A DNA stretch of 64,000 nucleotides from Nitrospirota bacterium (GCA_016213935.1 JACQZG010000006.1:60622-124621), one strand, 5' to 3'; positions 36,119-37,398 are shown, counted from the first letter of the stretch. Notes: a model not told the origin generated them from the letters alone. Program-made: numbers and translations.

Positions 36119-36613
36119 TTGTCCGATCTTTCACTACCAGATACAGAGGTTAATGATTTTCTTGCGAAGAAGAAAGAGATTGACGGCAAGATAAAATGGA
36201 AGAATAAGGGGAAGGCATATCTTGAATGGTCTTCCATATTGATAGATGAAGATGGAATAAGTATCCCTACGGCACGGATTATCTTGACGTCAAATCAGGA
36301 TGAAGAACTTTACAAGTTTACTTTTGTACTGGATTATCGCGGACAGAATATAAGACGGCTTGATATTGATGATACGCATAGAAGGACAAATCCTTCTACA
36401 TGTCCAGAGTATCCGGGCGTAAGGATAACAGGTAATCATTTGCATGTGTGGAGTCAGGATAACGGGATCAACTGTGTTGTTCCAATTGATATTCCGGCAC
36501 GGAACAAAACACATCAGGGGTGGTTTGAATTTTTTCTCAATGATGTAAAATTAATATATAATAATGAACATATCGCTCCACCCTTGACGAAGAGTTATCC
36601 GAGGTTATTTTGA
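36119..36613 (+). CDS. Hypothetical protein (164 aa by the track; start uncertain), first gene of the island
   Basis: AT-rich ORF with a GNHLHVW His-rich segment; no family recognised; its stop overlaps the next ORF's start. Confidence 0.4.
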   Translation: MSDLSLPDTEVNDFLAKKKEIDGKIKWKNKGKAYLEWSSILIDEDGISIPTARIILTSNQDEELYKFTFVLDYRGQNIRRLDIDDTHRRTNPSTCPEYPGVRITGNHLHVWSQDNGINCVVPIDIPARNKTHQGWFEFFLNDVKLIYNNEHIAPPLTKSYPRLF

Positions 36614-37398
36614 TGCTGGATTGCGTAACTATAAAAAGTAATATCAGCACGGCGCTTGGGAAGAGATTTGAATGTATTCCTCTTTCCCATTCCCTTGTTA
36701 TAAATACTCCATTTACCTATCCCAATCTTGATTCCATACAGGTATTTATTGAAACCTTGCCGAATGGTGAACTTGTTATCTCAGACAAAGGTGAAACTCT
36801 CAGATACCTTGCATCGTTTCTGATAGACGCTGAAGACACCCCTCATAAAATGAATCTCCTTAAATCCGTCACATCATCATATGGCACTGACTTCAAAGAA
36901 GGGATATTCTACAAATACAGCAATGAGAACCGTTTCAGCGACGACATCCTGAACATGGCCAATACAATTTTAAGGATAAGCGATCTACAGCTTGCTCAGA
37001 GGGTCAAGAAACCACGAAATGATTTTTATGCGCAGGTTGAGGAACTCATCAAGGAAATTGTTCCGGTCAAAGAAGAAATTGAAAGACGAACCGCGCTTGA
37101 AGGCAAGTCCGGCAAAAAATATCACGCAACTTATTTTGTTAAAAAAGAGAATACAATTATAGAGCCTCTTGCGCATCCTTTTCAGGCGGTTGACTGGACA
37201 AAAATTGCAAGTGTATTTCAGGAATTTTATGATCTTAAAAATAAGGCAGAGATGAATTATAGTCTCTATGCCATATTGGATGATGAAGAAAACGACTGGC
37301 CTGAAGAGCCGAAGATATTGCTTACTGATGTCTCGAAGATACTGCTTTGGAGTAGAAGGAAGCAGTGGAAGGATAAGATTTTGAAGAAAGCGGCATAG
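36610..37398 (+). CDS. Hypothetical protein (262 aa), translationally coupled to the preceding ORF
   Basis: ATGA-type overlap with the upstream ORF; no family recognised. Confidence 0.5.
   Translation: MMLDCVTIKSNISTALGKRFECIPLSHSLVINTPFTYPNLDSIQVFIETLPNGELVISDKGETLRYLASFLIDAEDTPHKMNLLKSVTSSYGTDFKEGIFYKYSNENRFSDDILNMANTILRISDLQLAQRVKKPRNDFYAQVEELIKEIVPVKEEIERRTALEGKSGKKYHATYFVKKENTIIEPLAHPFQAVDWTKIASVFQEFYDLKNKAEMNYSLYAILDDEENDWPEEPKILLTDVSKILLWSRRKQWKDKILKKAA

What the first reader, a model, noticed from the sequence alone, without database searches (positions are those of the whole stretch)
36119..37398. Translationally coupled two-gene cassette of unknown function at the left edge of the island
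Seen in sequence: a 164-aa-class ORF (start uncertain; contains DIDDTHRRTNP...GNHLHVWSQDNGINCVVP) is followed by a 262-aa ORF whose start overlaps its stop (ATGA-like overlap at 36610-36613). Both are AT-rich and I cannot place either in a family. Coupled pairs of this size at island edges are often toxin/immunity, abortive-infection or small defense modules; the His-rich GNHLHVW segment could be part of a nuclease-like site, which is speculative. A 7-bp hairpin (atcggac...gtccgat) overlaps the putative start region at about 36097-36120.
Basis: partly seen in the sequence, partly recalled or inferred. Interest (0 to 1): 0.55.

Follow-up and report, generated by a model that had tools for sequence, protein, structure and literature searches.

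The report
Mobile two-gene candidate anti-phage cassette
The two overlapping genes are real and always travel together from deep-subsurface bacteria to E. coli prophages, belong to a catalogued but untested candidate phage-defence family (PADLOC PDC-M24), and sit in lambda-like phages where the rexAB exclusion genes sit.

Summary
Gene A (36119-36613, 164 aa, TTG start) and gene B (36613-37398, 261 aa, ATG) overlap at TGATG. Both are under purifying selection (omega about 0.1-0.17) and open an 8-kb low-GC island between selA and selB.

They can be placed in families. A is a divergent DUF6978 / phrog_2017 protein. B is DUF1828+DUF1829 and matches PADLOC PDC-M24B over its full length (2e-33). PDC-M24 is one of 145 untested "guilt-by-embedding" defence candidates.

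A-then-B adjacency holds in all 11 lineages examined, down to about 20% identity. Nine of the eleven junctions overlap or can overlap by 1 or 4 nt. In relatives, DNA similarity to the window stops at the cassette edges.

In E. coli phage ev207 and the CFT073 prophage (241 of 5426 complete E. coli genomes) the pair lies directly after the cI-like repressor. This is the rexAB position.

Best reading: a self-contained anti-phage or exclusion module, with A as a His-site effector and B as a non-catalytic partner. The defence role is inferred, not tested. The nuclease idea is unsupported.

The parts
35950..44150 (.). Low-GC island (about 0.29-0.44 GC against about 0.51 in the flanks) inserted between selA (34551-35942) and selB (44204-46099), with tRNA-Sec at 46154-46252. 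The cassette is its first module.
36052..36081 (+). Promoter-like site TTGCCT-18 nt-TATAAT, 38 nt upstream of the gene A start. It lies inside the segment shared with the 90%-identical cassette of L012. This is a consensus match only.
36105..36127 (+). Hairpin (ATCGGAC...GTCCGAT, up to 9 pairs) enclosing the TTG start of gene A. Marginal (z -2.09) and not conserved in relatives.
36119..36613 (+). Gene A, 164 aa, TTG start. A divergent DUF6978 / phrog_2017 / PDC-M24A-like protein. The predicted structure is a beta-sheet plus helices with no solved relative. Putative effector.
36356..36394 (+). Codons for RLDIDDTHRRTNP (residues 80-92). These carry the conserved D82, His (87 here, 89 in distant members) and N91 of the family.
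36431..36451 (+). Codons for GNHLHVW (residues 105-111). H107 and H109 are invariant across the family. In relative L001 these codons are removed by an 11-bp deletion.
36601..36615 (+). Coupling junction: GAGG Shine-Dalgarno (36601-36604) inside the last codons of gene A, TGA stop (36611-36613) overlapping ATG (36613-36615), and an alternative TTG at 36610.
36613..37398 (+). Gene B, 261 aa (262 if started at TTG 36610). DUF1828 + DUF1829, PDC-M24B, phrog_5059/1960. Putative non-catalytic partner (regulator, sensor or antitoxin-like).
36706..36978 (+). DUF1828 domain of B. The predicted fold is type III secretion chaperone / YbjN / DUF2170-like.
37102..37353 (+). DUF1829 domain of B. The Pfam match is just above threshold. 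The structure was not confidently predicted. Conserved residues are G-x-S-G, D207 and D223/D224, with no conserved catalytic constellation.
37490..37527 (+). Imperfect inverted repeat (core CCCACGGGC AA GCCCGTGG) about 90 nt after the gene B stop. There is no T-run. Possible transcript end; weak evidence.

Best explanation
A self-contained, horizontally mobile two-gene module of the DUF6978 + DUF1828/DUF1829 type (PADLOC candidate PDC-M24), most likely an anti-phage system of the superinfection-exclusion or abortive-infection kind.

Shown:
- Two real, selected genes with overlapping stop and start codons.
- The A-then-B pair is conserved from Nitrospirota to Enterobacteria, Pseudomonas and Staphylococcus.
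- It moves as a unit with unrelated flanks.
- It sits in defence-type islands, and in temperate phages directly downstream of the cI-like repressor.
- Neither protein has a predicted membrane segment.

Inferred:
- A is made at low level. It has a non-ATG start in 9 of 11 lineages, and here the start is also inside a hairpin.
- B is made by translational coupling, so the two form a fixed-ratio complex.
- A is the effector. Its invariant H107-x-H109, with the conserved His/Asn of the RHxN loop and D82, forms a metal-binding or catalytic site of unknown chemistry.
- B has no conserved catalytic residues. It holds A in check or senses a phage product through its secretion-chaperone-like N-domain. 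Its DUF1829 domain plays the partner role proposed for the DUF1829 protein of the validated HipA-kinase system DS-6/HipAD.
- Infection releases or activates A, which blocks phage growth.
For: Family placement. B matches PDC-M24B at 2e-33 over its full length. A matches PDC-M24A at 1e-3. Pfam gives DUF1828 at 9e-14, DUF1829 at 1e-4 and DUF6978 at 3.8e-5. PHROGs give phrog_2017 at 8e-15 and phrog_5059 at 3.8e-27. PDC-M24 is a defence candidate found embedded in BREX, DISARM or type I RM systems, with 153 occurrences.

Adjacency. It holds in every relative:
- Close relatives L002, L004, L005, L012.
- Distant relatives L007, L008, L009, E. coli phage ev207 and CFT073, a Pseudomonas phage and a Staphylococcus element.
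- ev207 gp49 is homologous to A: hhalign probability 98.3%, E 1.8e-14.
- Junction overlaps and start codons are tabulated.

Position. The pair lies directly after the cI-like repressor on the same strand in L008, L009, ev207 and CFT073, and two genes after it in the Pseudomonas phage. This is the rexAB slot of lambda (own knowledge).

Neighbours of close relatives are a type III RM-like set, HEPN/MNT pairs and a DUF4011 helicase with MTES_1575.

DNA similarity is confined to the cassette. Purifying selection is shown.

Invariant H-x-H. A natural 11-bp deletion removes exactly the NHLH codons while B stays 100% identical. This fits A being the dispensable or costly effector and B being harmless alone.

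DUF1829 is implicated in validated defence as the partner of a toxin kinase (PMC13092281).
Against: - No member of the family has been tested. PDC-M24 is explicitly one of 145 untested candidates, and the literature is silent on DUF6978 and DUF1828.
- The match of A to PDC-M24A and to Pfam DUF6978 is weak (17 bits; 24.4 bits against a cut-off of 29.6).
- The chemistry of the His site is unknown, and no enzyme fold was recognised.
- The C-domain of B was modelled with pLDDT below 50, so its role rests on analogy.
- The A/B complex was not modelled.
- The L001 deletion is a single instance in an automatic assembly.
- In the window, the immediate neighbours are an ABC transporter and housekeeping selA, not known defence genes.
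- Defence-island and prophage positions are also typical of plain toxin-antitoxin modules.
Confidence: 0.5

Rival explanations
1. A plain toxin-antitoxin (addiction) module that stabilises islands and prophages, with A as toxin and B as antitoxin, and with no specific role against phages.
For: - Small coupled gene pair on mobile DNA with unrelated flanks.
- The island also carries a PIN-type TA pair.
- A natural variant has A destroyed and B intact, the usual decay order of TA pairs.
- The DUF1829 partner in DS-6/HipAD is itself described as TA-like.
Against: - No hit to any known toxin or antitoxin family.
- B has no recognisable DNA-binding autoregulator domain.
- The order of a weak-start gene A followed by B is unusual for type II systems.
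- Placement in the repressor operon of temperate phages, and embedding in RM/BREX systems, point to phage-directed function.
- This reading and abortive infection are not mutually exclusive.
Confidence: 0.2
2. One reading: A is an HNH or His-Me-type nuclease using the GNHLH histidines, and B is its immunity protein.
For: - H107 and H109 are invariant. A conserved His/Asn loop and D82 lie nearby in sequence.
- The model places H107-H109 on a strand that is followed by a second strand and a helix, which is a beta-beta-alpha order.
- Two Cys residues (95 and 119) largely co-vary.
Against: - No HNH or other nuclease family hit at E <= 1.
- The helix after the strands carries no conserved polar ligand.
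- Profile searches of the PDB give only chance-level hits.
Confidence: 0.1
3. A prophage accessory pair that modulates lysogeny (repressor operon cargo acting on the phage's own switch). In the window it would be a stranded remnant without current function.
For: - Position directly downstream of cI-like repressors in several temperate phages.
- PHROG families exist for both proteins.
Against: - In the window and its close relatives there are no phage genes around the pair.
- The cassette alone is what is shared between genomes.
- Both genes are under purifying selection there, so they function without a prophage.
Confidence: 0.07

Closest known systems
PADLOC phage defence candidate PDC-M24 (Payne et al., bioRxiv 10.1101/2024.01.29.577857)
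   Same: Two genes in the same order. B matches the PDC-M24B model end to end (2e-33). A hits only PDC-M24A models. The cassette is self-contained and found in defence contexts.
   Different: The match of A is weak (E 1e-3, 17 bits). The window clade is a rare, divergent branch seen only in Thermodesulfovibrionia/Nitrospirae-type MAGs. PDC-M24 itself has no tested function or mechanism.
Lambda RexAB and other cargo of the cI-N interval in lambdoid phages
   Same: Two genes directly downstream of, and co-oriented with, the cI-like repressor in ev207, CFT073, L008 and L009. In lambda that position is expressed in lysogens and excludes other phages (own knowledge).
   Different: There is no sequence or fold relation to RexA or RexB. 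RexB is a membrane protein. Neither A nor B has a hydrophobic segment: the maximum 19-residue hydropathy is 0.86 and 0.76.
DS-6 / HipAD (DefensePredictor, Science 2026, PMC13092281)
   Same: A validated two-gene defence system in which a DUF1829-containing protein partners the effector and is proposed to act like an antitoxin.
   Different: The effector there is a HipA-like kinase and the partner's other domain is DUF3037. Here they are DUF6978 and DUF1828. No direct sequence comparison was possible.
Type III secretion chaperones (CesT/SycE/Spa15 class), YbjN and DUF2170 proteins
   Different: Sequence identity is 3-13%. B carries an extra DUF1829 domain. There is no secretion system nearby. 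The similarity is of fold only, from a model whose N-domain pLDDT is about 80.
Pfam DUF6978 / phrog_2017
   Same: A aligns over residues 6-159 with phrog_2017 (8e-15) and residues 8-125 with DUF6978. Ten of 17 family representatives match DUF6978, best 1e-18.
   Different: The window protein itself scores below the Pfam gathering threshold (24.4 against 29.6 bits). The family has no known function.

Membership tests
PADLOC PDC-M24 | Gene B matches a PDC-M24B profile | tested here: met
   PDLC04540 E 2e-33, residues 10-258 against profile positions 6-254 of 256. PDLC04539 E 2.3e-20.
PADLOC PDC-M24 | Gene A matches a PDC-M24A profile | tested here: inconclusive
   PDLC04536 E 9.8e-4, 17.1 bits, residues 6-125. 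Close relative P0003 scores 1.1e-5. PADLOC's own per-model cut-offs are not available here.
PADLOC PDC-M24 | A directly upstream of B on the same strand as one cassette | tested here: met
   1-nt overlap in the window. The same order holds in 11 of 11 lineages.
PADLOC PDC-M24 | Anti-phage activity | not testable with these tools
   The family is listed among 145 untested candidates. No later test was found.
Pfam DUF6978 (PF22398) | Score at or above the gathering threshold | tested here: not met
   24.4 bits against 29.6. Homology is nevertheless supported by phrog_2017 at 8e-15, by 10 of 17 relatives matching and by hhalign at 98.3% to ev207 gp49. The window protein is a divergent relative rather than a formal member.
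Pfam DUF1828 (PF08861) + DUF1829 (PF08862) | Both domains above the gathering threshold, in N-to-C order | tested here: met
   DUF1828 51.9 bits (cut-off 22), residues 33-123. DUF1829 22.8 bits (cut-off 22.2), residues 165-248, which is marginal.
Lambda RexAB | Homology to RexA and RexB, with RexB a multi-pass membrane protein | tested here: not met
HNH / His-Me finger nucleases | Profile match to a nuclease family, or a beta-beta-alpha-metal fold match with a conserved His plus Asn/His ligands | tested here: not met
Type II toxin-antitoxin systems | Match to a known toxin or antitoxin family; toxicity of one gene neutralised by the other | tested here: inconclusive
   No known TA family hit. 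Toxicity is not testable here. The natural loss of A with B intact is compatible with this reading.

The most novel reading that the evidence does not exclude
The DUF6978 protein is a new-fold, histidine/metal-dependent effector, kept in check by a secretion-chaperone-like partner. Together they form a widespread exclusion system that replaces rexAB in the immunity operon of lambdoid prophages, including those of E. coli CFT073 and an EcN-labelled strain, and that circulates as a 1.35-kb cassette as far as Nitrospirota. The mechanism would not be shared with any characterised defence system.
Probability: 0.3. Interest if true: 0.65.

Novelty: new member of a known kind. Interest (0 to 1): 0.45.

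Why it matters
If the pair is a defence system, it would turn an untested database candidate into a system with clear experimental handles:
- a native E. coli version present in about 4% of complete genomes, in the best-studied phage locus (the cI-N interval);
- a two-residue signature (H107, H109) to mutate;
- a natural knock-out of exactly that motif;
- an effector whose confident predicted fold has no solved relative.

It would also add a second case, after HipAD, of a DUF1829 protein partnering a defence effector. For the window itself, it marks the selA-selB interval of this Nitrospirota-type genome as an insertion site for defence and TA cargo.

Tried and rejected
- Sequence searches of the PDB with shallow and diverse profiles of both proteins gave only chance-level hits: SPT16 at E 0.016, SIN3, tail tube proteins.
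- AFDB Foldseek was unavailable.
- The B model was poor for residues 131-262. No fold statement is made for DUF1829. Motif-level ideas (PD-(D/E)xK, Toprim, P-loop) were considered and dropped because the required acidic or lysine residues are not conserved.
- NCBIfam gave nothing useful.
- The word-index protein search and the exhaustive representative search found few relatives of A: 9, then 16 at E <= 1e-3. The deep alignment hoped for was not obtained.
- The search for related loci with a diverse B alignment failed for lack of a conserved stretch. With the close family it returned only 3 genomes and 3 metagenome contigs.
- A recurring radical-SAM neighbour in three contexts was checked. The proteins are only related at superfamily level, so no association is claimed.
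- A 10-nt exact direct repeat flanking the cassette (36110-36119 and 37468-37477) is expected by chance in 1.7 kb, and relatives share sequence upstream of it. It was rejected as a target-site duplication.
- The Nissle 'pr' paper (PMC5987069) cloned only the repressor, not the pair.
- The Fc02 'overlapping exclusion genes' paper (PMC9936078) concerns different genes.

Full report
**1. What is in the sequence**

The + strand carries two ORFs. Gene A spans 36119-36613 (164 aa, TTG start). Gene B spans 36610/36613-37398 (262 or 261 aa).

TTG 36119 is the most upstream possible start of A. Five relatives encode proteins of exactly 164 aa with a conserved N-terminus (MS[DE]L...TEVxDFLxKKKEID). Profile matches start at residues 6-8. 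The start is therefore settled.

For B, every relative begins MLxC, so ATG 36613 is the likely start. The junction reads GAGG-N8-ATG, with the TGA stop of A (36611-36613) sharing one base with the ATG.

GC drops from about 0.51 to about 0.38 at about 35950 and recovers near 44000.

Against relatives at 90% and about 70% identity, dN/dS is 0.17 and 0.10 for A and 0.11 and 0.11 for B. Both are real, selected genes.

Its dG is -10.5 kcal/mol with z = -2.09, and 6 of 200 shuffles fold as well. Relatives do not conserve it. It is at most a local, minor feature.

A promoter-like TTGCCT-18-TATAAT lies at 36052-36081. No intrinsic terminator was found.

**2. Family placement**

| Protein | Library | Match |
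|---|---|---|
| B | Pfam DUF1828 | 9.4e-14 |
| B | Pfam DUF1829 | 1.3e-4, just above cut-off |
| B | PADLOC PDC-M24B | 2e-33, residues 10-258 of the protein, profile 6-254 of 256 |
| B | phrog_5059 / phrog_1960 | 3.8e-27 / 4.2e-17 |
| A | Pfam DUF6978 | 3.8e-5, 24.4 bits against cut-off 29.6 |
| A | PADLOC PDC-M24A | 1e-3 |
| A | phrog_2017 | 8e-15, residues 6-159 |

Ten of 17 representatives of the wider A family match DUF6978, the best at 1e-18.

PDC-M24 is cassette CAS_00098 (FAM_00129>>FAM_00065, 153 occurrences) in Payne et al. It was derived from genes embedded in BREX, DISARM and type I RM systems. It is one of 145 explicitly untested candidates.

I found no paper on the function of DUF6978, DUF1828 or PDC-M24. 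The one relevant item concerns DUF1829. DefensePredictor lists it as a domain newly implicated in defence. It occurs in DS-6B, the partner of a HipA-like kinase in the validated system DS-6/HipAD, where it is proposed to act like an antitoxin.

**3. The pair is conserved as a unit**

Close relatives (63-92% identity) come only from Thermodesulfovibrionia/Nitrospirae-type MAGs, plus one MAG labelled Aenigmarchaeota in one source and Nitrospirae in another. In each, A is immediately followed by B.

The exhaustive search of 1.84 billion representatives found only 16 proteins related to A at E <= 1e-3, so this clade is rare.

Three distant relatives of A (about 20-25% identical to the window protein) that could be traced to contigs are also followed directly by a B-like protein. 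Two of these are flagged DUF1828. The third, in L007, has no Pfam hit but aligns end to end with B and hits PDC-M24B at 2.6e-5.

The same holds in three further elements:
- E. coli phage ev207 and the CFT073 prophage. Here gp49 aligns to the A family with hhalign probability 98.3%, E 1.8e-14.
- Pseudomonas phage VB_PaD_phPA-G, where the A-like ORF is unannotated.
- A Staphylococcus element.

Across the 11 lineages:
- The junction overlaps by 1 nt (TGATG or TAATG) in five and by 4 nt (ATGA) in three.
- The same ATGA is present in L009, where the called B gene starts 44 nt later.
- A 1-nt or 5-nt gap separates the genes in the other two.
- B always starts with ATG. A starts with TTG or GTG in 9 of 11.

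In the relatives that share detectable DNA similarity with the window (L001-L006 and L012-L014), the similarity begins and ends at the cassette. It spans 36034-37386 in the 90% relative and 36119-37397 or 36144-37442 in most of the others. The flanks are unrelated. The cassette is therefore a discrete mobile module of about 1.35 kb.

**4. Context**

In the window, the cassette opens a low-GC island that separates selA from selB, with tRNA-Sec following selB. The island also holds:
- an NMT1-type ABC transporter;
- a DUF4062 protein followed by a radical-SAM enzyme;
- a VanZ gene;
- a PIN-domain pair.

Close relatives sit beside a type III RM-like set (methylase, Bro-N, ResIII helicase), two HEPN/MNT pairs, a 1858-aa DUF4011 helicase with MTES_1575, or a radical SAM + PNP_UDP gene set.

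In L008, L009, ev207 and CFT073 the pair lies directly after the S24-type cI-like repressor on the same strand. In ev207 and CFT073 it lies between the repressor and the N region, with cro and cII on the other side. In the Pseudomonas phage it is two genes after CI.

In lambda this interval holds rexA-rexB, which are transcribed with cI in lysogens and exclude other phages (own knowledge).

The E. coli version is present at >= 99% identity in 241 of 5426 complete genomes. These include CFT073, the type strain ATCC 11775 and a strain labelled EcN_Sk.

**5. The proteins**

Across the family the invariant residues are W27, H107 and H109. D82, N91, W111, F139 and a His two residues before N91 are nearly invariant. 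In the window clade that His sits four residues before N91, at position 87. C95 and C119 are mostly present or absent together.

This pattern fits a metal-binding or catalytic site. It gives no indication of the chemistry, and there is no nuclease signal.

The DUF1829 half keeps a G-x-S-G turn, D207 and D223/D224, but no conserved catalytic set.

Neither protein has a membrane segment.

*Natural variants.* In L001, an 11-bp deletion removes exactly the NHLH codons of A and shifts the frame, while B is 100% identical to that of L002. P0009 is a deletion fusion of A and B. The apparent truncation of B in L006 is a run of N.

**6. Interpretation**

The best-supported reading is a self-contained anti-phage or exclusion module of the PDC-M24 type. 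The gene-level facts are shown: the conserved pair, the coupling, mobility, selection and context.

The working model is inferred:
- A is the effector and is made in small amounts.
- B is made by coupling. It binds A, or a phage product, through its chaperone-like domain.
- Infection frees or activates A.

I put about 0.5 on this as a whole. The defence role is more likely than the particular mechanism.

Rival readings:
- A plain toxin-antitoxin module (0.2). This overlaps with abortive infection.
There is no positive evidence beyond the histidines.
- A lysogeny accessory pair stranded in the chromosome (0.07). The cassette is under selection with no phage genes around it.
- Housekeeping function or chance ORFs. 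These are excluded.

**7. Comparison and verdict**

The pair belongs with PADLOC PDC-M24. The B criterion and the gene order are met. The A criterion is weak.

It works in the same genomic slot as RexAB but is not a member of that family. It shares one domain family with the partner protein of HipAD.

It is a new, divergent member of a catalogued but uncharacterised kind. Interest is moderate. The finding is not surprising to a defence-systems specialist. It does provide a tractable E. coli homologue, a sharp mutational target and an effector fold with no solved relative.

Noticed in passing
window 34551-46252: The selenocysteine genes selA (34551-35942) and selB (44204-46099), followed by tRNA-Sec (46154-46252), are split by the 8-kb low-GC island. 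The selA-selB interval appears to act as an insertion site here.
   Followed up: partly
window 39906-41946: A DUF4062 protein (413 aa, GTG start) is followed after a 1-nt gap by a 265-aa radical-SAM protein, in the lowest-GC part of the island (0.29-0.33). The DUF4062 protein has no PADLOC hit; the radical-SAM protein was not scanned against PADLOC. This may be a second uncharacterised defence-type pair.
   Followed up: partly
window 43151-43806: An 84-aa ORF overlaps a 138-aa PIN_3-domain protein by 16 nt. This is a VapBC-like toxin-antitoxin pair at the right edge of the island.
   Followed up: partly
window 37577-39882: An NMT1-type substrate-binding protein, an ABC ATPase and an unusually short (181 aa) permease-like ORF lie inside the low-GC island. 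The permease gives no clear Pfam match and may be truncated.
   Followed up: no
window 42044-42789 (- strand): A VanZ-family gene and an adjacent 122-aa membrane ORF lie on the opposite strand, in a GC-richer patch (0.44-0.50) within the island. The island looks mosaic.
   Followed up: no
L001 7518-7847: An 11-bp deletion removes exactly the codons of the N-H-L-H motif of gene A and shifts the frame. Gene B is identical in protein sequence to that of L002, and here it is followed by a type III RM-like set.
   Followed up: yes
L015 2920-3504: Pseudomonas phage VB_PaD_phPA-G has an unannotated 194-aa A-like ORF (GTG start, HPHLH motif) overlapping the annotated B-like gene by 4 nt, two genes downstream of the CI-like repressor.
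   Followed up: partly
L016 981-4208: A Staphylococcus aureus element carries a short (88 aa) A-like ORF that matches only the C-terminal half of DUF6978, directly before a DUF1828/DUF1829 gene. It also carries a second, solo DUF1828/DUF1829 gene 1.4 kb upstream.
   Followed up: partly
window 36110-36119 and 37468-37477: An exact 10-nt direct repeat (ACGGGATATT) brackets the two genes. It is expected by chance at this length, and relatives share sequence upstream of it.
   Followed up: yes
L005 1641-5125: In the groundwater MAG, the cassette is followed by a 389-aa radical-SAM gene, a 284-aa unknown and a 486-aa PNP_UDP_1 protein. This may be another defence-type operon.
   Followed up: no
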